A stretch of 64,000 bases of DNA from an uncultured Gammaproteobacteria bacterium. GTDB taxonomy: Bacteria > Patescibacteriota > Microgenomatia > Daviesbacterales > UBA10151. The stretch is from contig CAZFYQ010000003.1 in NCBI GenBank assembly GCA_964523905.1, positions 28,976 through 92,975 of the forward strand. Reading direction: 5' to 3'. Under the pieces are notes generated by a model, which saw only the letters and a program-made list of their open reading frames with translations, did not search any database and had not been told where the DNA came from. The position numbers and the translations under genes are program-made. Of this stretch, positions 23,717 through 62,048 are shown piece after piece (positions within the stretch are counted from its first letter, which is position 1; every line of letters begins with the position of its first letter).

Positions 23717-24385
23717 ATGGATGTAGTTAAGCTCTCCAAGATCAATAAAATTTACTCCTCAGGAGAAGTCTCTTTTCAAGCATTAAAGGATATTAATTTC
23801 GCTGTTAAAAAAGGAGAATTTGTGGCTATTATTGGTGCTTCCGGTTCTGGAAAATCTACTTTAATGAATATTATCGGACTGCTGGATCACCCGACCACTG
23901 GACATTATGAACTAGACGGCGAGGACGCTTCGCACTTGCGAGAGAATAAATTAGCCGGAATTAGAAATAAAAAGATTGGTTTTGTGTTTCAGTCATTTAA
24001 TCTTTTATCCAGAACCTCGGCTTTAGATAATGTGGCGCTACCTTTAATTTATGCTAAAGTTTCAGCCAGCGAAAGAAGATTAAGGGCCAAGCAAGCTTTA
24101 GAAATAGTCGGTTTAGGTGATAAATTAGGCTCCCATCCCAATCAATTATCCGGCGGTCAACAACAAAGAGTTGCCATTGCTAGAGCCTTAGTAACTGATC
24201 CCGAGCTAATCCTAGCTGATGAGCCAACTGGAAACTTGGATTCTAAGTCGGGTGTAGAGATTATGAAGATTTTTCATAAATTAAATAATGAGGGTAAAAC
24301 TATTATTATGATAACTCATGAAGATGATATTGCCAAAAATGCCAAACGGGTAATTCGAATAAAAGACGGAGAAATTGTTAAATAA
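23717..24385 (+). CDS. ABC transporter ATP-binding protein (MacB/LolD-type)
   Basis: Walker A GASGSGKST, signature LSGGQQQRVAIARAL, Walker B ILADEPTGNLD. Confidence 0.9.
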   Translation: MDVVKLSKINKIYSSGEVSFQALKDINFAVKKGEFVAIIGASGSGKSTLMNIIGLLDHPTTGHYELDGEDASHLRENKLAGIRNKKIGFVFQSFNLLSRTSALDNVALPLIYAKVSASERRLRAKQALEIVGLGDKLGSHPNQLSGGQQQRVAIARALVTDPELILADEPTGNLDSKSGVEIMKIFHKLNNEGKTIIMITHEDDIAKNAKRVIRIKDGEIVK

Positions 24386-25569
24386 TGGAGACTTTAAAAT
24401 TGGCAATGGTGGCAATTTGGGCTAATAAATTACGTTCCAGTTTAACAGTTCTGGGAATTGTCATCGGGGTCATGTCAGTGATTTTATTAATCTCTTTGGT
24501 CACCGGTTTGCAAACCTTTATTACTGGACAAATACAGGGATTGGGATCAAATTTATTATTTGTAATTCCCGGCAGAGTGGGCGGAGCCAGGTCACCAGGC
24601 GGAGTACAGGCTAATAAGCTGGTTTATTCTGATGCCAATACTTTGGCTGCTAGATTAACCGGGCAGGCCGTTGTATCTGCAGCTATTCAACGAACTACTA
24701 CTTTAAAATATAGTAATAAAAATGACAAAAACACCGCGGTTTTTGGAGTTGATGCAACTTATCCTAAAGTTATCAGCTCCTTAAAATTAACAGAAGGCCG
24801 ATTTTTTAAAGAATCGGATGCGGTTTCCGCCAGAAGAGTAGCAGTAATTGGTCAAACAGTTAAAACCAATTTATTTGGCACTTCCTCAACTGTTGGCAAA
24901 GTAATTGATGTGGGAGGAGTTAAATACACTGTCATCGGGGTGTTAGATAAACGGGGCTCTTTATTTGGAATTGATCAGGATAATTCAATTTACTCCCCTT
25001 TTCTGGCAATTCAAAGGCAATTTGGTTTAAATAATCTAAATACTATATATATTTCGGCTAATGATTCCGCTAATGTCAAAACCGTACAGAAAAAAGCCAC
25101 CAACATCTTGTTAAAACGTTTGTCTGAAGATGATTTTACAGTGCAGTCTCAGGAACAAGCCTTATCAACTATTTCTCAAATTACCGGGGTCTTAACAGCT
25201 GCTTTGGGAGGCATAGCAGCTATTTCTCTTCTGGTTGGTGGAATTGGCATCATGAATATCATGCTAGTATCTGTCACAGAAAGAACCAGAGAAATTGGCC
25301 TGCGCAAAGCCATTGGTGCCACCCCGGGCAATATCCGTAATCAATTTTTAATTGAGGCTTTAACCTTGTCTGGCTTTGGAGGGATCTTAGGAATTGCCAT
25401 TGGATTTGGAATATCTCTTATTATTGGGATCTTCTTTACCACCACAGTACCGCTATGGTCAGTGGCTTTATCATTTGGATTCTCAATGTTAGTGGGAGTG
25501 ATCTTTGGCGTAGCGCCGGCTATTCGAGCATCCAGATTGGATCCAATTACAGCTCTTCGTTATGAATAA
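24385..25569 (+). CDS. ABC transporter permease, FtsX/MacB family
   Basis: N-terminal TM, a large periplasmic domain, and a C-terminal 3-TM FtsX bundle. It is translationally coupled to the ATPase gene (ATGA overlap). Confidence 0.85.
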   Translation: METLKLAMVAIWANKLRSSLTVLGIVIGVMSVILLISLVTGLQTFITGQIQGLGSNLLFVIPGRVGGARSPGGVQANKLVYSDANTLAARLTGQAVVSAAIQRTTTLKYSNKNDKNTAVFGVDATYPKVISSLKLTEGRFFKESDAVSARRVAVIGQTVKTNLFGTSSTVGKVIDVGGVKYTVIGVLDKRGSLFGIDQDNSIYSPFLAIQRQFGLNNLNTIYISANDSANVKTVQKKATNILLKRLSEDDFTVQSQEQALSTISQITGVLTAALGGIAAISLLVGGIGIMNIMLVSVTERTREIGLRKAIGATPGNIRNQFLIEALTLSGFGGILGIAIGFGISLIIGIFFTTTVPLWSVALSFGFSMLVGVIFGVAPAIRASRLDPITALRYE

Positions 25570-25578
25570 TTTACGTTT

Positions 25579-25593
25579 ACACCTGAGAGGTGT
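25579..25593. repeat. Solo REP-like hairpin ACACCT-gag-AGGTGT between convergent genes
   Basis: Same arms as the hairpins flanking transposase copy 1. Confidence 0.5.
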
Positions 25594-25597
25594 CAGG

Positions 25598-26233
25598 CTA
25601 AATAAATTGGAATACTCCGCCTAAATTGTTTAATACTTTATCTGCCTGGCTAAAATCCCCGTCCATAGTTTCTTTACCAGGTATAGCAAATACAGTCATA
25701 CCTGCTGCTACAGCTGCTGCCACCCCAATCGGTGAATCTTCCAGCACTAAACAATCATTGGGGTCCACGCTGATTGCTTTAGCAGTTAGTAAATAGACAT
25801 CTGGAGCGGGTTTTCCTCTCTTAACATTTTCTGCAGAATACAACGCATCAAAAAAATCGCCAACCTCTAAGGCCTTGACAATAATATTAATAGTGGCAAT
25901 CTGAGAACTGGAAGCAATGGCCATTTTGATACCTACTCGCCTTAAATCATTTAATAGATCCATTAAACCAGGACGAGGGAGAATTTTATCTAGAAGTTGT
26001 CTGGTAATAACTTGCTTTTGATCAAATAATTCCTCAGCAGTTATGGGTAGCTGGTAACGGGTGACCATGTCTACAGCGCAATCCATGTCTGTTTTACCAA
26101 GATACAACTTTATGTTATCTTCTTCAGTGAATTGTTTGCCGTATTTTTGAAACACCTGATCAAAAGCCTGCTGATGAATTGGCTCGGAATCCACCATTAG
26201 TCCATCCATATCAAAAATCACTGCTTTAAACAT
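25598..26233 (-). CDS. HAD-superfamily hydrolase (beta-phosphoglucomutase-like phosphatase)
   Basis: Motif I VIFDMDGLMVDSEP, motif IV GKPAPD...LEDSPIG. Start set at MFKAVIFD; the track ORF extends to 26311. Confidence 0.75.
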   Translation of the reverse strand: MFKAVIFDMDGLMVDSEPIHQQAFDQVFQKYGKQFTEEDNIKLYLGKTDMDCAVDMVTRYQLPITAEELFDQKQVITRQLLDKILPRPGLMDLLNDLRRVGIKMAIASSSQIATINIIVKALEVGDFFDALYSAENVKRGKPAPDVYLLTAKAISVDPNDCLVLEDSPIGVAAAVAAGMTVFAIPGKETMDGDFSQADKVLNNLGGVFQFI

Positions 26234-26236
26234 TGT

Positions 26237-27280
26237 TTGATTATACCAAAGGTATATAATAAGAGTATGAATTTGTCTCATACTGAACAGGAAATGCTGG
26301 AAGCTAAGCAAGTTTGTCTAAACTTCGACTTCGCTATTACTAAAGATATTGCAGAAAAAATTGGCCAATCTAATATTATCTTCGCCGGAATGGGTAGTAG
26401 CTTAATTTTTCCCGGAAAACAAGCCAAAAATCGGGCCTTAAAACTAGGCATCAGTAATAAGGTTGAAGCGTTCTTTGCCTCAGATTTATTTCAATACGAA
26501 GATTTTTCTAACACCTACGTATTTTTATGTAGTAATTCTGGTAAAACCAAAGAAGTAATTCTTTTATTGGATTATGCACAAAAACATGGAGCTAAATGTA
26601 TTGCTGTCACTGCTGTAGCTGATTCTATCCTGGCTCAAAGAGCAGATGAAAAGATTATTCTAACCTGTGGTTTTGAACAAGGCGTAGCCGCAACTAAATC
26701 CGTGATTGAACAGGGATTGGTATATGATTCACTAATCTTTCACTTGGCGAAAAACCAAGGCAAAGATGTTGACTTTGATTTTCTAAAACAAGAACTGGAT
26801 AAAACTGCTGAGATCTTAGAAAGCAATGTTAATGCTAAATTGGATGCGAAACTACTTGAGCAGTTAGTTAAAGAAAATCTATACTATGTAGCTGGTTTGG
26901 ATAATGGTGTTGCTGAGGAAATTGCTCTAAAGTCTTATGAAATAGCACGTAAAATGGCCATATTCTTTGCCGACACCCACACGGTGCATGGACCGGAGGA
27001 AGGTATTGATAATGGCTGCGTAATACTTATAGAACCCAACTATTTCAAGGAGTATTTGTCAGATTTTCAAAAATTCGTTGATAAAACCAAAACTACTTTA
27101 ATTGGAGTCGACCAGGATTTATTAATTCCCGGCTTGGAAATTCAAATTAATGATACTTTCCGTAATTATTGCCTGTTAGCTGGTGGTTGGGCCTTGCTTA
27201 GAAACATCGGCGTAGAAATGGGCATTGATATTGATCATCCAGTCAAAGCTTCCAAAGTCGGCAATCCTTTTGAGGGATAA
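26237..27280 (+). CDS. SIS-domain sugar-phosphate isomerase/binding protein
   Basis: Two SIS-like halves; GMGSS and SNSGKT motifs. Confidence 0.6.
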   Translation: MIIPKVYNKSMNLSHTEQEMLEAKQVCLNFDFAITKDIAEKIGQSNIIFAGMGSSLIFPGKQAKNRALKLGISNKVEAFFASDLFQYEDFSNTYVFLCSNSGKTKEVILLLDYAQKHGAKCIAVTAVADSILAQRADEKIILTCGFEQGVAATKSVIEQGLVYDSLIFHLAKNQGKDVDFDFLKQELDKTAEILESNVNAKLDAKLLEQLVKENLYYVAGLDNGVAEEIALKSYEIARKMAIFFADTHTVHGPEEGIDNGCVILIEPNYFKEYLSDFQKFVDKTKTTLIGVDQDLLIPGLEIQINDTFRNYCLLAGGWALLRNIGVEMGIDIDHPVKASKVGNPFEG

Positions 27281-40942: not shown

Positions 40943-41655
40943 ACACCTTAAAGGTGAGTGCGTAAAAATTAGTCGTTTATATCTATTAATTGGTGTTTAA
41001 TAATTTCTAATTCACTACCATAAGCTATTTGGTCCTCTGTGAATTCTTTATATCTCTCAGGCGAGGAGAAGAAAGCCAGAACCTCACCTAAGGCGCAATA
41101 CCTTGAGTTACCTGATAAATATTCCTCATAAGATGACCAAGGATAAGCTTCCAGCTCTTTTACCATTCCCGACACTATTGGATTTAAATGAATATAGCGG
41201 GACACATGGACGAATTGCTCATCTGACTCAATTAAAACAGATTTAAATGTGCCTTGAAAAAGTGATCCTACCCGTCGGTATTTAGTATTGAAGTATTTGG
41301 TATAACTGTTAGCCAGCTGACTTGAAAAAAGTGAAATACCGCCATCCTTTAGTTGTTTTACCAGAAAATGGAAATGATTTGGCATTAAGCAATAAGCCAG
41401 AATTTCAACCAGTTTCTTATCCTGTTGAGGTATAAAGGAACTAAATGTATTTCTTGATAGCTTAGACAATCGGGATTTTGGTCCTTGGTATTGATAGTAA
41501 TAGAAGGTATTTTGAAACCTGCGATAATCTCTAGGTTGGGTAAAGATATCACGTTTCTCACTACCTCTATTGTAGATATGATAAATCTCACCGCTTACTA
41601 GTGGAACTAGTCTTCCTGGCATTATCTTTAGTTTACGAGTACACCTTAAAGGTGT
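40943..41655 (-). mobile_element. RAYT/IS200-like unit bounded by identical palindromes ACACCTTAAAGGTG
   Basis: Hairpin copies at 40943-40956 and 41641-41655 tightly bracket only the transposase gene. Confidence 0.55.
40969..41622 (-). CDS. HUH Y1 tyrosine transposase, RAYT/IS200-like (copy 1)
   Basis: N-terminal YHIYNRG, HuH motif LMPNHFHFLV, catalytic-Tyr region RYIHLNP, and a C-terminal YPWSSY motif as in RAYTs. Start set at MPGRLVPL; the track ORF runs to 41658 and would include the upstream hairpin. Confidence 0.75.
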   Translation of the reverse strand: MPGRLVPLVSGEIYHIYNRGSEKRDIFTQPRDYRRFQNTFYYYQYQGPKSRLSKLSRNTFSSFIPQQDKKLVEILAYCLMPNHFHFLVKQLKDGGISLFSSQLANSYTKYFNTKYRRVGSLFQGTFKSVLIESDEQFVHVSRYIHLNPIVSGMVKELEAYPWSSYEEYLSGNSRYCALGEVLAFFSSPERYKEFTEDQIAYGSELEIIKHQLIDIND

Positions 41656-55837: not shown

Positions 55838-55882
55838 TTAATTCTTTAATTTGATCTCTGATTCTGGCTGCTTCTTCAAAGA
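55838..55882. repeat. Direct repeat copy A of the uvrB 3' end (~45 nt)
   Basis: About 87% identical to 57931-57975. On the minus strand it encodes FEEAARIRDQIKELTN-stop, i.e. the UvrB C-terminal UVR motif, preceded in frame by a stop. Confidence 0.8.
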
Positions 55883-56107: not shown

Positions 56108-56266
56108 AATCGTTTTTCCCTATGGGTCAAGAGAAATTCACCGTTCGCTGTTACTTTGTTAAAAGTAATACCCTTCCTCTTCTAGGAAGAATTGATATTT
56201 GGAATAAGTTTAATTTGTTTTTTGATAATAAAAAAGAGCAGGTGGTTTTCGAAAAGTTTTAAAGAC

Positions 56267-56310
56267 TTAATTCTTTAATTTGGTCACGGATTCTTCGGCT
56301 TCTCCAAAGT
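56267..56310. repeat. Direct repeat copy B of the uvrB 3' end (more diverged)
   Basis: ttaattctttaatttggtcacggattcttcggcttctccaaagt is about 80% identical to the uvrB terminus. Confidence 0.7.
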
Positions 56311-57922: not shown

Positions 57923-59893
57923 CTAAATACTTAATTCTTTAATCTGATCTCGGATTCTGGCGGCTTCTTCAAAGTCTAAAACTGCTGCGGCTTCTTTCAT
58001 TTCGGTTTCTAATAGTTTTATCATTTTCTGACGTTCGTCTGCCGGGATATCCTCCGGTTTTAAAATGTCTTTGCCTAATTTTTCCTGGACCTCTTCCAAT
58101 TGTTCTATTAAGCGATCACGCAAAGGCTTAATGATTGATTTAGGAGTAATGTGATGTTCCTTATTATATTGTTCCTGATACTCGCGTCGTCTGGTAACCT
58201 CATCAATAGCTGCTTTCATGGATTTGGTAACTGTATCTGCATACATAATCACATGACCATGTACATGCCGGGCTGCCCGGCCCATGGTCTGTACTAAGGA
58301 AGTTCTGGATCTTAGAAAGCCTTCTTTATCCGCATCAATAATAGCCACTAAAGATACTTCCGGCAAATCCAAACCCTCCCGAAGCAGATTAATTCCCACC
58401 AACACATCAAATTCTCCCAGTCTTAATGAATTTAAAATATCCGATCTTTCCAGGGTAGCCACATCAGAATGTAGATATTGCACTTTCAAGCCTTTTTCTT
58501 TTAGATAATCCGTTAAATCCTCGGCCATTCTTTTGGTTAGGGTCGTTACCAGCACCCGTTCACCTTGTTTAACTCGTTTCTCAATCTCTAGCTGTAAATC
58601 AGCAATCTGACCTTGAGTTGGACGAACATCAACTTTCGGATCCAATAGCCCGGTTGGTCTAATTAACTGCTCTGCAATATTGCTTCCAGCTAAGCTCAAT
58701 TCATATTCATCCGGAGTTGCAGAAGTATAAATTGCCTGATGAACCCGTCTTTGAAATTCATCAAACTTTAACGGCCGGTTATCCAAAGCAGAAGGCAGCC
58801 TAAACCCAAATTCTATTAAGGTTTCCTTGCGGGCCCGGTCCCCGTTATACATCCCCCTAATTTGTGGCAAAGTAATGTGAGACTCATCAATAATTACTAA
58901 ATAATCTTTCGGAAAGTAATTTAATAAAGAATATGGCGCAGAACCAGGCTCACGGCCATCAAAATAGCGGGAATAATTTTCAATGCCATTACAATAACCA
59001 TACTGACGAATCATTTCTAAGTCAAAATTAGTTCTTTGTTCCAACCTTTGAGCTTCTACCAGCTTACCCTGGCTTTTCAGTTCCTTTAACCTAGCTGCTA
59101 AGTCTTCTTCAATTTGTTTTATTCCCGGCACAATTCTTTGTTCCGGTGTAATGTAGTGCTTGGCTGGATAAATTACCTGAGTACCTTGTAAATCCTCAGT
59201 ATTACCGGTTAAAGGGTCTAGCTTAGCAACTTTTTCAATCTTGTCACCTAGAAACTGTAATCTGTAGCCCGTGTCTAAATATGAAGCAAAAATATCAATT
59301 GTTTCACCGCGGACCCGATATGCACCTCGTTTGAAATCAATATCGTTCCTTTCATAATACATTTTCTGGAGAATTTTCATGATTTGTTGAAACGTGGCTT
59401 TCATACCCTGGCCTACTTCTAAAATAGCCTGGCCATATTCAATTGGAGAACCCAAGTTATAAATTGCGGAAACTGACGCTACTACGACTGTATCCTTGCG
59501 GGTTAATAAGGAAGCTGTGGTGGAAAGCCGCAGCTTTTCGATCTCTTCATTAATAGAGGCATCCTTTTCTATATAGGTGTCAGATGAAGGAAGATATGCT
59601 TCTGGCTGGTAATAATCATAATAAGAAACAAAATATTCCACGGCATTATCCGGAAAGAACATTTTAAATTCCTGAGTAAGTTGTGCAGCCAGAGTCTTAT
59701 TGTGGGAAATAATCAGAGTCGGCCGCTGCACAGCTTGGATCACATTAGCCATGGTAAAAGTCTTACCAGAACCAGTTACTCCCAGCAAAACCTGGTGTTC
59801 ATCACCTTTATTTAACCCTTTAACCAGCTTTTCAATAGCCTGTGGCTGATCACCAGTTGGCTTAAATCCGGAAATAATCTTAAAATTTGGCAT
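57923..59893 (-). CDS. uvrB: Excinuclease ABC subunit B
   Basis: Helicase motifs GVTGSGKT and DESH, the beta-hairpin region, and the C-terminal UVR motif FEEAARIRDQIKEL. Confidence 0.95.
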   Translation of the reverse strand: MPNFKIISGFKPTGDQPQAIEKLVKGLNKGDEHQVLLGVTGSGKTFTMANVIQAVQRPTLIISHNKTLAAQLTQEFKMFFPDNAVEYFVSYYDYYQPEAYLPSSDTYIEKDASINEEIEKLRLSTTASLLTRKDTVVVASVSAIYNLGSPIEYGQAILEVGQGMKATFQQIMKILQKMYYERNDIDFKRGAYRVRGETIDIFASYLDTGYRLQFLGDKIEKVAKLDPLTGNTEDLQGTQVIYPAKHYITPEQRIVPGIKQIEEDLAARLKELKSQGKLVEAQRLEQRTNFDLEMIRQYGYCNGIENYSRYFDGREPGSAPYSLLNYFPKDYLVIIDESHITLPQIRGMYNGDRARKETLIEFGFRLPSALDNRPLKFDEFQRRVHQAIYTSATPDEYELSLAGSNIAEQLIRPTGLLDPKVDVRPTQGQIADLQLEIEKRVKQGERVLVTTLTKRMAEDLTDYLKEKGLKVQYLHSDVATLERSDILNSLRLGEFDVLVGINLLREGLDLPEVSLVAIIDADKEGFLRSRTSLVQTMGRAARHVHGHVIMYADTVTKSMKAAIDEVTRRREYQEQYNKEHHITPKSIIKPLRDRLIEQLEEVQEKLGKDILKPEDIPADERQKMIKLLETEMKEAAAVLDFEEAARIRDQIKELSI

Positions 59894-59936
59894 CTAGTTA
59901 TTATACAGCGAAATTTACCCGAAAAGAAGAGCTTAG

Positions 59937-60158
59937 TTAATGAGTTGGGTGGAGTTCTAATGGAAATAAAGGGACTATATTAGACTGTTCAGATAAAGGA
60001 GTAGTAGCTGTTTTAGAGACATTTAACCTTGGCTTTTTTGTGAATTCGGGTAAATCCACCCTTAAATCCACAGCTGTATGTAATGCCTGTCTTTGAAGTT
60101 CATGGATATCATTTTCCATAGTTCTTAACCGAAATTCATATTCTGAAGAAGTTGGCAT
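59937..60158 (-). CDS. Small hypothetical protein (73 aa), paralog of the 61760-61990 product
   Basis: The N-terminal ~35 aa MENDIHELQRQALHTAVDLRVDLPEF align with MQEDLDQIRVSAIELASVVVLLDPKP. Confidence 0.35.
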   Translation of the reverse strand: MPTSSEYEFRLRTMENDIHELQRQALHTAVDLRVDLPEFTKKPRLNVSKTATTPLSEQSNIVPLFPLELHPTH

Positions 60159-60207
60159 CAGGCTATTTTAGCATAGCAAAGATTATTTGTTGTTAATAGC
60201 AACTATC

Positions 60208-60967
60208 AACCTGGGAGGTGGACTACGTTGACACCTAGGGAAAATTTGAATATTGTTATATTATGCCCGGAAGAAAGATTCCTCTAATTACTGGTGAGAC
60301 ATACCATGTATTTAACAGAGGTATTGATAGAAGACCCACCTTTACCAATAAAAGGGAATTAGACAGGGCTCAAAAGACCATCAGTTTTTACAATTTTTTT
60401 GAACCACCGGTTAGTTTATCAAAATTCCTAAGACTTGAGACAAAGAAGCAAAATGAAATTCTTGATGCTTTAGCCCAAAACAAGAAATTAGTTGAGATTT
60501 TTTGTTATTGCTTAATGCCTAATCATTTTCATCTATTAGTAAGACAAGAGCGAGACAAAGGAATTGCTAAATTTCTAAGCAATTTACAAAATAGTTACAC
60601 GCGATACTTTAATGTAAAACACTCCAGAGATGGTTCACTTTTTCTGGACCAATTTAAAGCCGTGCGGATAGAAACTGACGAGCAGCTCTTGCACGTATCC
60701 CGCTATATTCACTTAAATCCCCATACCGGTTTTGTGGTGAAAACTCTGGATGAACTTGAAAATTACCCTTGGTCCTCATTTCCAGATTACCTACAAAATA
60801 ATGACCAGGTTGTGGATACTGAATTCATACTAGGTTTATTTAAGAATGCTAAACAATATAAGGAGTATGTATTCGATCAAGCTGATTATCAGCGAGAATT
60901 AAGCTTAATAAAACATTTAGTTTTGGAATAATCCCTAGGTTGCCTATCTGGATAACCTCCCAGGTGG
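60208..60967 (+). mobile_element. RAYT/IS200-like unit bounded by ~35-bp imperfect terminal inverted repeats built from ACCT/AGGT hairpins
   Basis: Left end aACCTgggAGGTgg...ACACCTAGGG (60208-60240). Right end CCCTAGGT...aACCTcccAGGTgg (60933-60967), beginning 2 nt after the stop codon. Confidence 0.55.
60263..60931 (+). CDS. HUH Y1 tyrosine transposase, RAYT/IS200-like (copy 2)
   Basis: YHVFNRG, HuH CLMPNHFHLLV, SRYIHLNP, and C-terminal YPWSSF. About 45% identical to copy 1. Confidence 0.75.
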   Translation: MPGRKIPLITGETYHVFNRGIDRRPTFTNKRELDRAQKTISFYNFFEPPVSLSKFLRLETKKQNEILDALAQNKKLVEIFCYCLMPNHFHLLVRQERDKGIAKFLSNLQNSYTRYFNVKHSRDGSLFLDQFKAVRIETDEQLLHVSRYIHLNPHTGFVVKTLDELENYPWSSFPDYLQNNDQVVDTEFILGLFKNAKQYKEYVFDQADYQRELSLIKHLVLE

Positions 60968-60983
60968 GATTTTTAGAAAATAA

Positions 60984-61373
60984 TTAGGGCTTAATGCGGC
61001 GTTCCGTGTATTGTATTGCATCTCTAGCGCTGGAAAAACGATTGGCCACTTGATATCTAACTTCTACTGACCCAATTACTCTGGTGGACCAAACAGAAAT
61101 AGCACCATGCACATCACTTAGTTCATCACTGGCTACAGCTAATGAATGGAATACATCTCTGGCATGACCCAGTCTTTCCCTGCCCCTTTCATCCATAGGT
61201 TTGCCTTGTTCATCTATAGCGGCAGTTTCCAAGGCATAAGTAAAAGCTTGTCTAAAGTTTAAACCTTCATGGCGCATTTGGTAAGTTACACCATTTTGAT
61301 GGGCCCACCTTATTGCTTGCTCTATCTGGCGAGGTTTAAAAGAAGTAAGTTCTCTTTCTCTAAAATCTGCCAT
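60984..61373 (-). CDS. Hypothetical protein (129 aa)
   Basis: Third gene of a three-gene minus-strand operon; no motif recognised. Confidence 0.35.
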   Translation of the reverse strand: MADFRERELTSFKPRQIEQAIRWAHQNGVTYQMRHEGLNFRQAFTYALETAAIDEQGKPMDERGRERLGHARDVFHSLAVASDELSDVHGAISVWSTRVIGSVEVRYQVANRFSSARDAIQYTERRIKP

Positions 61374-61385
61374 GGGTGGATTTTA

Positions 61386-61754
61386 TCACACTCCAAAAGG
61401 AATAAAACCAGGAGGGAATAAAAAGGTCAGGTTATCAGTAGAATCTTCTGCTGGCTCAAACTCCACGGTATTTGCTTCAAGATATTTTCTAAATTCTTCT
61501 AGTCTGGGAGAAAATAACCTGGGGAAAGCTACAATATTTGAAGGCAGTTCCTGTTGTGGTAATAAAGCACTAAAATTTAAAGGTGGAGGTAGCACGGGCA
61601 AAGGCACATCATTAGAATCTGGATCTATTCCTCGTAAGGCATGCAGAACTGAAAGCAAGTTAGCTTCTTCTACTGTGAAGATAATTTCTGGTAAGTTTTC
61701 TAATCCGCCTTCTATTATTGTTAACTGTGGCTGCCCTTTATCAAACTCTGTCAT
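61386..61754 (-). CDS. Hypothetical acidic Pro-rich protein (122 aa)
   Basis: Middle gene of the operon, with 12-nt and 5-nt intergenic gaps. Confidence 0.35.
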   Translation of the reverse strand: MTEFDKGQPQLTIIEGGLENLPEIIFTVEEANLLSVLHALRGIDPDSNDVPLPVLPPPLNFSALLPQQELPSNIVAFPRLFSPRLEEFRKYLEANTVEFEPAEDSTDNLTFLFPPGFIPFGV

Positions 61755-61759
61755 ATGGG

Positions 61760-61990
61760 TTATTGAAACATGATCTCACAATAATACAGACGTGAATGCG
61801 GGTCAGCAGTGGTGTTAGCAACCGGGGGATTAAGAATTTGGTCAATTTTCTTACCACGTAGGCTTGCTCTTCGGGGTTTAGGGTCTAAAAGGACCACAAC
61901 ACTAGCTAATTCTATTGCGCTGACCCTAATCTGATCAAGGTCTTCCTGCATTGCATCCAAGCGCGCTTCATTTTCTAAAGGAATTGCCAT
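61760..61990 (-). CDS. Small hypothetical protein (76 aa), paralog of the 59937-60158 product
   Basis: Leading gene of the operon; its N-terminal region is similar to the 73-aa protein. Confidence 0.35.
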   Translation of the reverse strand: MAIPLENEARLDAMQEDLDQIRVSAIELASVVVLLDPKPRRASLRGKKIDQILNPPVANTTADPHSRLYYCEIMFQ

Positions 61991-62048
61991 GCCTGTATTT
62001 TACCATAAAGAAGGATTGCAAACTTGTTGAAGGTATGTTACGTTAAAA

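What the first reader, a model, noticed from the sequence alone, without database searches (positions are those of the whole stretch)
60208..60967. Second diverged RAYT-like gene with compound inverted-repeat ends, inserted between paralogous small genes
The ends form nested inverted repeats: ACACCTAGGG and CCCTAGGT inside, ACCT-ggg-AGGT and ACCT-ccc-AGGT outside. The right end begins 2 nt after the stop codon. The element separates two paralogous small genes (73 aa at 59937-60158 and 76 aa at 61760-61990). This suggests insertion into a former tandem array, or duplication mediated by the element. The two transposase copies are only about 45% identical, so they are old paralogs rather than one active IS.
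Basis: seen in the sequence. Interest (0 to 1): 0.5.

Follow-up and report, generated by a model that had tools for sequence, protein, structure and literature searches.

The report
Hairpin-flanked RAYT-like transposase gene
This is a single-copy gene for a REP-type (Y1 HUH) tyrosine transposase, bracketed by two inverted copies of its own 35-nt hairpin motif; the same motif is scattered without the gene between genes in related Candidate Phyla Radiation genomes, so it is a known kind of element in a little-studied phylum.

Summary
The inverted-repeat ends are real and not chance. Window 60263-60931 (+) encodes a 222-aa Y1 HUH protein with HUH H88/H90 and Tyr148 in a YIHLNP motif. Its closest solved structure is E. 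coli TnpA-REP.

Each end is one copy of a 32-35 nt module, on the top strand at the left and the bottom strand at the right. The module is a short hairpin (ACCT-GGG-AGGT), a 13-14 nt spacer, and the box ACCTAGGG.

Homologues 57-78% identical sit in unrelated gene neighbourhoods but keep these ends. Conservation stops at the outer hairpins.

A scan of 185,579 species genomes found at least 118 loci with the module. About 100 have no transposase gene nearby, they are mostly between genes, and one MAG has at least 14 copies. This is a REPtron/TIRtron arrangement in Patescibacteria.

This 64-kb window holds only the two gene-flanking copies.

The 73-aa and 76-aa ORFs give no BLASTP or HMMER match to each other. 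The closest relative replaces the whole 2.1-kb block with unrelated ORFs.

The second copy at 40969-41622 is 49% identical. It has its own hairpin type, plus one gene-less copy of that hairpin at 25569-25604.

It is a new member of a known kind, of moderate interest.

The parts
60208..60241 (+). Left-end module. Outer hairpin A-ACCT-GGG-AGGT-G (60208-60220), 13-nt spacer, inner box CACCTAGGG (60232-60240).
   Evidence: Covariance model hit 60201-60247, 54.3 bits, E 5.7e-12. The same sequence lies upstream of homologues in other neighbourhoods.
60228..60256 (+). Promoter-like site inside the left end: TTGACA, 17 nt, TATTGT, ending 6 nt before the ATG. The mRNA would have little or no leader (inferred).
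   Evidence: 10 of 12 consensus positions. TTGACACCT is invariant upstream of homologues whose hairpins differ. The paralogue has TTGACA-17-TAAACT.
60263..60931 (+). 222-aa Y1 HUH tyrosine transposase of the TnpA-REP/RAYT class. HUH at 60524-60532 (H88-F-H90). Catalytic Tyr148 at 60704-60706, in RYIHLNP.
   Evidence: Pfam PF01797 above cut-off. HUH and Tyr are invariant in 30 homologues. PDB profile hit 4ER8 aligns HUH, Y---NP and WSSF. AlphaFold2 pLDDT 89; top Foldseek hit 4ER8, E 6.5e-7.
60933..60966 (-). Right-end module, read on the bottom strand: C-ACCT-GGG-AGGT-T, 14-nt spacer TATCCAGATAGGCA, box AACCTAGGG. On the top strand it also fits a terminator-like stem followed by ATTTTT.
   Evidence: Covariance model hit 60926-60973 (-), 48.7 bits, E 1.4e-10. 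Conserved downstream of homologues. Terminator-like site 60943-60968; this feature is not conserved in relatives.
40969..41622 (-). Paralogous RAYT-like gene, 49% identical. It is flanked by its own inverted ~35-nt motif, TTTACG-N3-4-CACCT-NNN-AGGTGTC-NNGCTAA, with hairpin cores at 41642-41654 and 40944-40956.
25569..25604 (+). Gene-less copy of the paralogue's end motif (TTTACGTTTA-CACCT-GAG-AGGTGTC-AGGCTAA), in the 28-bp gap between convergent ORFs.
   Evidence: three CACCTNNNAGGTG sites in the window against 0.02 expected. Searches give the sequence comparison.

Best explanation
The locus is a REPtron/TIRtron-type unit. It consists of a low-copy gene for a TnpA-REP-class (RAYT-like) Y1 HUH endonuclease/transposase, bracketed by two inverted copies of its cognate DNA motif. 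The motif is a short hairpin with a 3-nt loop, a 13-14 nt spacer, and a box that repeats the 5' arm of the hairpin.

Inferred mechanism, by analogy with E. coli TnpA-REP and IS608 TnpA:
- The protein recognises the folded motif on single-stranded DNA, for example at the replication fork.
- It cuts with Tyr148, using HUH-bound metal, and rejoins the strands.
- This moves or copies the ~35-nt motif, and rarely the whole gene-plus-ends unit.

The left-end motif also supplies the gene's -35 promoter box.

Shown here:
- The protein class and its intact catalytic residues.
- Conservation and covariation of the end motifs.
- Their presence as gene-less, mostly intergenic copies in related genomes.
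- The different genomic locations of the gene in different lineages.

Inferred, not shown: binding, cleavage sites, strand choice, and current activity in this genome.
For: Protein:
- Searches give the family, catalytic residues and fold.

Ends conserved with sharp boundaries, in different neighbourhoods:
- Homologues at 73% and 70% identity.
- 13 more loci.
- 70 protein-ascertained metagenome loci each have their own hairpin at both ends. A left/right inverted word of >=10 nt occurs in 33/70 loci, against 6/350 mismatched controls.

Covariation:
- Hairpin pairs 8-20 (CG 81, AU 24) and 7-21 (four pair types, 97/116 paired).
- The box covaries with the same 3' arm (GC 82, UA 21).

Dispersal:
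- At least 118 genome loci carry the motif, and about 100 of them have no transposase gene within 8 kb.
- Match lengths are 31 or 32 nt in 120 of 130 matches.
- Only 23% of copies lie inside long open frames, against 86% of random positions.
- Copy numbers per MAG are lower bounds: 14, 10, 7 and 7 in the four richest.
- Two near-identical gene-less copies lie beside a 70%-identical homologue.

Single-copy behaviour:
- Almost every 90% protein cluster has one member.
- The gene sits at the same site in four assemblies of one species.
Against: - In this window only the two gene-flanking copies exist. A dispersed family is therefore not shown for this genome, of which only 64 kb was read.
- The window's own hairpins are weak: 4 bp, with an A.G or C.T mismatch at the next pair. 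Their DNA folding energies are not significantly better than shuffles (z -0.4 to -1.8).
- The protein scores below NCBI's REP_Tyr_transpos cut-off (49 against 80 bits).
- The motif lacks the GTAG foot of classical REPs.
- No biochemical data exist for this subfamily.
Confidence: 0.75

Rival explanations
1. It is an autonomous, currently mobile minimal insertion sequence of IS200 type that transposes as a 760-bp unit. The gene-less motifs are only decay products or solo ends.
For: - Conservation stops exactly at the outer hairpins.
- The gene lies in unrelated neighbourhoods in different lineages.
- It is absent from the syntenic site of the closest relative.
- Back-to-back right-end/left-end fusions that look like excision junctions occur in one MAG.
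Against: - No near-identical copies were found. 90% clusters have one member, and the location is fixed within a species.
- The two copies in the window are only 49% identical.
- Gene-less motifs outnumber genes about 7 to 1, and some are identical to each other with unrelated flanks.
- The tyrosine motif is Y---NP (TnpA-REP class), not Y----Q of IS200 (PMC6006769).
- The ends are inverted, whereas IS200/IS605 hairpins lie on one strand (established knowledge).
Confidence: 0.15
2. The element was inserted into, or created, a tandem pair of paralogous small genes (73 aa and 76 aa).
For: Both ORFs are on the minus strand. They share a weak 24-residue match at the same N-terminal position, with shuffle p about 0.0125.
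Against: - No BLASTP alignment.
- The 76-aa protein finds nothing but itself in 1.84 billion proteins.
- The 129-aa neighbour has no homologue in the databases searched.
- The closest relative has unrelated ORFs in this interval.
- The two ORFs are separated by the transposase plus two other ORFs, not by the transposase alone.
Confidence: 0.05
3. The flanking repeats are only the gene's own promoter and terminator, with no role as DNA substrates.
For: A TTGACA-17-TATTGT site lies in the left end, and a terminator-like stem plus T-run lies in the right end.
Against: - The same motifs occur about 100 times without any gene.
- The right-end T-run is not conserved in homologues.
- Left and right ends are inverted copies of one module.
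Confidence: 0.03

Closest known systems
TIRtron / TIRYT (Di Nocera et al. 2013, PMC3733652), which probably corresponds to TnpA-Y1 subclass 2.1 and RAYT group 1 (PMC6006769, PMC5581495)
   Same: - A RAYT-like gene flanked by inverted repeats unrelated to GTAG REPs.
- The repeats are partly self-complementary.
- They form moderately abundant dispersed families in some genomes and are absent in others.
- The protein is longer than E. coli RAYT, with a C-terminal extension carrying conserved serines.
   Different: - The GGGGWSAS motif seen in some TIRs is absent.
- The hosts are Patescibacteria, which those surveys did not cover.
- Assignment to subclass 2.1 was not tested, because no reference sequences were available here. 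PMC6006769 found no REP-like repeats for subclass 2.1, whereas this family has them.
E. coli REPtron (tnpA-REP/yafM flanked by REPs; structure 4ER8)
   Same: - Best structural and profile match.
- Y---NP tyrosine motif.
- Single-copy gene bracketed by inverted copies of a short imperfect palindrome, which is also dispersed between genes.
   Different: - About 15% sequence identity.
- The motif has no GTAG foot, a much shorter stem with a 3-nt loop, and an extra box 13-14 nt away.
- Copy numbers are tens per genome rather than hundreds.
- Most copies are singlets rather than REPIN/BIME doublets.
IS200/IS605 family (IS608, ISDra2 TnpA)
   Same: - Y1 HUH fold.
- Hairpin-containing ends.
- Compact size.
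- The box complementary to the hairpin's 3' arm recalls the guide/cleavage-site pairing of IS608. This is a resemblance only.
   Different: - Tyrosine motif is Y---NP, not Y----Q.
- The ends are inverted, not on one strand.
- No tnpB gene.
- No multi-copy identical elements.

Membership tests
Y1 HUH transposase superfamily (Pfam PF01797) | Profile match above the curated cut-off | tested here: met
   39.7 bits against a cut-off of 23.
Y1 HUH transposase superfamily (Pfam PF01797) | HUH metal-binding motif and a single catalytic tyrosine | tested here: met
   H88-F-H90 and Y148 are invariant in 30 homologues and align with 4ER8.
Y1 HUH transposase superfamily (Pfam PF01797) | The fold | tested here: met
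   AlphaFold2 pLDDT 89. Foldseek top hits are 4ER8, 2XO6, 2A6M and 2VJV.
TnpA-REP / RAYT (class 2 of PMC6006769) | Y---NP tyrosine signature | tested here: met
   RYIHLNP; Y148, N152 and P153 are invariant.
TnpA-REP / RAYT (class 2 of PMC6006769) | Low copy number, and no near-identical copies in a genome | tested here: met
   Two copies in the window, 49% identical. 90% clusters have about one member. Whole genome not seen.
TnpA-REP / RAYT (class 2 of PMC6006769) | Gene flanked by its cognate palindromic repeats in inverted orientation | tested here: met
TnpA-REP / RAYT (class 2 of PMC6006769) | The same repeat dispersed between genes in the host genome | tested here: inconclusive
   None besides the two flanking copies in this 64-kb window. 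Met in related genomes.
TnpA-REP / RAYT (class 2 of PMC6006769) | GT[AG]G tetranucleotide foot 5' of the hairpin (canonical REP) | tested here: not met
   The alignment of 116 motif copies shows no GTAG; the 5' flank is variable.
TnpA-REP / RAYT (class 2 of PMC6006769) | NCBIfam NF047646 equivalog score | tested here: not met
   49.3 bits against a cut-off of 80; the paralogue scores 61.7.
TnpA-REP / RAYT (class 2 of PMC6006769) | Sequence-specific binding and cleavage of the single-stranded repeat | not testable with these tools
   Needs biochemistry.
TIRtron / TIRYT (PMC3733652) | RAYT-like gene bracketed by inverted repeats unrelated to GTAG REPs | tested here: met
TIRtron / TIRYT (PMC3733652) | GGGGWSAS motif in the TIR (present in only some TIRYT groups) | tested here: not met
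   Absent from the left and right ends.
IS200/IS605 insertion sequence | Y----Q tyrosine motif, multiple near-identical copies, hairpins on one strand at both ends | tested here: not met
   Y---NP motif. No identical copies. Ends are inverted.
REPIN (inverted REP doublet) | Two motif copies in inverted orientation close together, forming a long hairpin | tested here: not met
   Not in the window. Most copies elsewhere are singlets. Fused doublets were seen only in MAG QZIP01.

The most novel reading that the evidence does not exclude
The hairpin-plus-box module may be a mechanistic variant of Y1 substrate recognition. Three segments covary: the 5' arm, the 3' arm and the distal box. The 3' arm could therefore pair with either partner, acting as a built-in guide or switch that presents a cleavage site.

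Short tandem duplications of 'outer flank + outer arm up to the loop' are seen at many ends across subfamilies. These would be footprints of cutting at the arm/loop junction.

If so, Patescibacteria, and possibly the DPANN archaea that share the motif, carry an undescribed active family of REP-like elements with readable cleavage scars.
Probability: 0.25. Interest if true: 0.6.

Novelty: new member of a known kind. Interest (0 to 1): 0.4.

Why it matters
REP/RAYT systems have been studied almost only in Proteobacteria, and how the enzyme moves its repeats is still unknown. This work identifies a large RAYT-like family in the small genomes of Patescibacteria (more than 7,700 database proteins). 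Three features could guide biochemical tests: a short, easily synthesised substrate, clear covariation, and candidate cleavage scars. For annotating this window, the practical message is that the gene should not be called an active IS, and that the small ORFs around it are lineage-specific with no homologues found.

Tried and rejected
- PDB search with the single protein found nothing. Only the profile and the predicted fold reached 4ER8.
- Folding the window's ends as single-stranded DNA gave no significant stability. Support for structure comes from covariation across copies, not from energy.
- The synteny test through the 129-aa neighbour failed, because that protein has no homologue in 5.8 billion sequences. 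UvrB-based synteny shows a replaced block, not a clean empty site. A third UvrB relative had no DNA available.
- A long-range stem between the 3' arm and the box is supported for only one variable pair. The next two pairs are mostly unpaired, so I do not claim a long imperfect hairpin.
- Viral contigs hold only 30%-identical relatives and one motif match. A phage vehicle is unlikely.
- Rfam finds no known RNA family over the region.
- No terminal repeats bound the 2.1-kb variable block, so I do not propose it is a larger mobile island.
- I could not derive a convincing mechanism for the tandem junction duplications. They are reported as unexplained.

Full report
**1. What is in the sequence**

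The ORF 60263-60931 (+) encodes 222 aa. ACCTGGGAGGT lies at 60209-60219, and its exact complement ACCTCCCAGGT lies at 60955-60965. These are the only two exact matches in the window. ACCTAGGG lies at 60233-60240, and CCCTAGGT lies at 60933-60940, starting at the second base after the stop codon.

Read on the bottom strand, the right end has the same layout as the left end. The left end is ACCT-GGG-AGGT, 13 nt, ACCTAGGG. The right end is ACCT-GGG-AGGT, 14 nt, ACCTAGGG. The "nested" repeats are therefore two inverted copies of one module.

The window has 38.8% G+C. The nearest homologues of its UvrB and of this protein are named Daviesbacteria, Levybacteria or Microgenomates. The host is therefore a Patescibacteria (CPR) bacterium. 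This is inferred from names given by the sources.

**2. The protein**

- Pfam Y1_Tnp scores 39.7 bits against a cut-off of 23.
- NCBIfam REP_Tyr_transpos scores 49 bits, below its cut-off of 80.
- In an alignment of 30 homologues, the HUH motif (M-P-N-H-F-H) and R-Y-I-H-x-N-P are invariant. Y---NP is the class-2 (TnpA-REP) signature of PMC6006769; IS200 transposases have Y----Q.
- A profile search of the PDB gives E. coli TnpA-REP (4ER8) as the best hit. It is weak (E 0.049) but spans HUH, the tyrosine motif and the WSSF motif.
- The AlphaFold2 model has pLDDT 89 and pTM 0.84. Its best Foldseek match is 4ER8 (E 6.5e-7, TM 0.69 on the target), followed by ISDra2 and IS608 TnpA.

**3. The ends are conserved functional units**

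Homologues 73% (P0010) and 70% (P0021) identical lie between entirely different genes. Both keep AACCTGGGAGGT...TTGA.ACCTAGGG upstream and CCTAGGTTGCCTATCT...AACCTCCCAGGTG downstream. Similarity stops at the outer hairpins. Thirteen further loci show the same pattern.

Four assemblies of one species have the gene at the same site. Almost every 90% protein cluster has a single member.

In 80 metagenome loci found through the protein alone (33-61% identity), each gene carries its own hairpin at both ends. Examples are CCACCT-tcg-AGGTGG, TACACCT-ccg-AGGTGTA, TTCAACAC-cgg-GTGTTGAA and GTGCAATAT-cag-ATATTGCAC. A left/right inverted word of 10 nt or more occurs in 33 of 70 loci, against 6 of 350 mismatched pairs. 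TTGACACCT upstream of the gene is invariant whatever the hairpin. With TATTGT 17 nt downstream it fits a promoter ending 6 nt before the ATG.

**4. The module exists without the gene**

- Match lengths are 31 or 32 nt in 120 of 130 matches. The spacers fall into a left-end type (..TAGCTTGAC) and a right-end type (..AGCTAGGMA).
- About 100 loci have no homologue of the protein within the 8-kb stretch.
- Flanks are unrelated between copies.
- Only 23% of copies lie wholly inside a stop-free frame of 300 nt or more, against 86% of random positions. The motif's own TAG closes one frame in three, which does not explain the difference.
- Lower-bound counts of exact copies per assembly are 14 (CAZDTO01), 10 (QZIP01), 7 (JBGTMH01) and 7 (MFJR01).
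- The covariance model finds about 14 extra, non-exact copies in 690 kb.
- Next to the 70%-identical homologue there are two gene-less copies, identical over 33 nt, with unrelated flanks. This points to recent copying of the motif alone.

Many records are titled "uncultured Gammaproteobacteria". At least one of these (CAZXEC01) carries the same locus as a Daviesbacteria MAG (L002 and L003), so I treat those titles as unreliable.

In this window the model finds only the two flanking copies.

**5. Structure of the module**

On 116 copies, the outer hairpin extends beyond the fixed ACCT/AGGT core.

- Pair 8-20 is CG in 81 copies and AU in 24.
- Pair 7-21 has four pair types, and 97 of 116 copies are paired.
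- No shuffle reaches the observed covariation score (0 of 500), and slid controls score far lower.

The base before the box covaries with the same 3'-arm base (GC 82, UA 21), but the next two candidate pairs do not hold. The box is therefore a partial direct copy of the 5' arm, and the 3' arm could pair with either.

A 49%-identical subfamily has CACCC-tca-GGGTG, a compensated change in the core.

The window's own two hairpins have only 4 bp, with a mismatch at the next position. They are not stable by energy.

**6.

The closest relative found has UvrB 88% identical. It keeps the S8 peptidase gene and uvrB, but has 566 bp with two unrelated ORFs (64 and 79 aa) where the window has 2.1 kb (59913-62015).

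The 129-aa and 76-aa proteins have no homologues in the databases searched. The 73-aa and 76-aa ORFs give no BLASTP alignment, and only a marginal 24-residue similarity. The "paralogous genes / tandem array" reading is not supported. The interval is simply a variable spot.

**7. The other copy**

The paralogue at 40969-41622 (-) is 49% identical. It is flanked by inverted copies of TTTACG-N-CACCT-NNN-AGGTGTC-NNGCTAA. A third, gene-less copy of that motif lies at 25569-25604, between convergent ORFs. That makes three CACCTNNNAGGTG sites against 0.02 expected. Each paralogue thus has its own motif, as described for genomes with several RAYTs (PMC6006769).

**8. Comparison with known systems**

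RAYT-like genes bracketed by inverted repeats unrelated to GTAG REPs were named TIRtrons/TIRYTs (PMC3733652). Their repeats are sometimes self-complementary and moderately repeated. They were linked to TnpA-Y1 subclass 2.1 and RAYT group 1 (PMC6006769; PMC5581495).

This locus fits that description. The canonical REP features (GTAG foot, NCBIfam equivalog score) are not met.

I found no paper that describes such repeats in CPR bacteria. One preprint mentions a REP-associated transposase annotation in passing. This literature search was not exhaustive.

**9. An unexplained signature**

At many ends, the outer flank plus the outer hairpin arm, up to the first loop base, is duplicated in tandem. 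An example is cctagcatccACCTG-cctagcatccACCTGGGAGG.

- It occurs in 14 of 122 pattern-found copies. ACCTG occurs 22 times in the 45 nt upstream and 3 times downstream.
- In the protein-found set, short tandem repeats occur in 26 of 140 end windows, against 2.2% of control windows. Some of those 26 are the hairpin/box repeat itself.
- The window's element does not show it.

The fixed inner boundary suggests a defined break near the arm/loop junction. I have no tested mechanism for it.

**10. Verdict**

The element is a REPtron/TIRtron-type unit: a new member of a known kind, in a phylum where it has not been described. The paralogous-gene idea should be dropped. Interest is moderate.

Noticed in passing
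window 25569-25604: A gene-less copy of the end motif of the other RAYT-like gene (40969-41622). It sits in the 28-bp gap between convergent ORFs 24385-25569 (+) and 25598-26311 (-). The hairpin is ACACCT-GAG-AGGTGT.
   Followed up: partly
L112, L034, L051, L089, L103, L105, L107, L124, L084 (pattern set); L140, L195, L204, L176, L177 (protein set): Short tandem duplication of 'outer flank + outer hairpin arm up to the first loop base' directly abutting the motif. It occurs at gene-flanking and gene-less copies and across subfamilies with different hairpin sequences. It is enriched about 8-fold over control windows. The mechanism is unknown; it may be a cleavage scar.
   Followed up: partly
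L083 3594-3641 and 4417-4464; L063; L111 (MAG QZIP01): Left-end-type and right-end-type modules fused back to back around a single central hairpin (CCCTAAGT-spacer-ACCT-GGG-AGGT-spacer-ACCTAGGG). This looks like a gene-less right-end/left-end junction or a REPIN-like doublet.
   Followed up: partly
window 57935-57979, 56260-56310, 55838-55881: The last ~45 nt of uvrB, coding the C-terminal UVR motif ..EEAARIRDQIKEL, recur twice more downstream of uvrB at 80-88% identity. The relative L126 also carries extra copies.
   Followed up: no
window 59884-59905 and 60149-60170: The start regions of uvrB and of the 73-aa ORF share a 22-nt stretch at 77% identity (rc: TATAATAACTAGATGCCAAATT versus TAAAATAGCCTGATGCCAACTT). 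The 73-aa ORF may have arisen from a duplicated uvrB 5' region.
   Followed up: no
window 59937-60158, 60984-61373, 61386-61754, 61760-61990: Four co-directional small ORFs (73, 129, 122 and 76 aa) around the transposase have no Pfam or NCBIfam match. The 129-aa and 76-aa proteins have no homologue in multi-billion-protein searches. The closest relative lacks the whole block.
   Followed up: partly
L045, L069 (Pacearchaeota MAG JAWAAV01); L091, L116 (Bathyarchaeia MAGs): Well-formed copies of the same motif occur in contigs binned as archaea. This is either mis-binning of CPR contigs or sharing of the element between CPR bacteria and archaea.
   Followed up: no
L126 5003-5020: At the syntenic intergenic site of the closest relative there is a solitary hairpin, CAACC-TCCCG-GGTTG, followed by ACA (making TTGACA). 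It resembles a degraded outer hairpin but is not significant with the covariance model.
   Followed up: partly
L008-L125 record titles; L003 versus L002: Many MAGs titled 'uncultured Gammaproteobacteria/Pseudomonadales (binchicken)' carry this CPR-type motif and gene. Assembly CAZXEC01 shares an identical locus with a Daviesbacteria MAG, so these titles look like wrong or placeholder taxonomy.
   Followed up: partly
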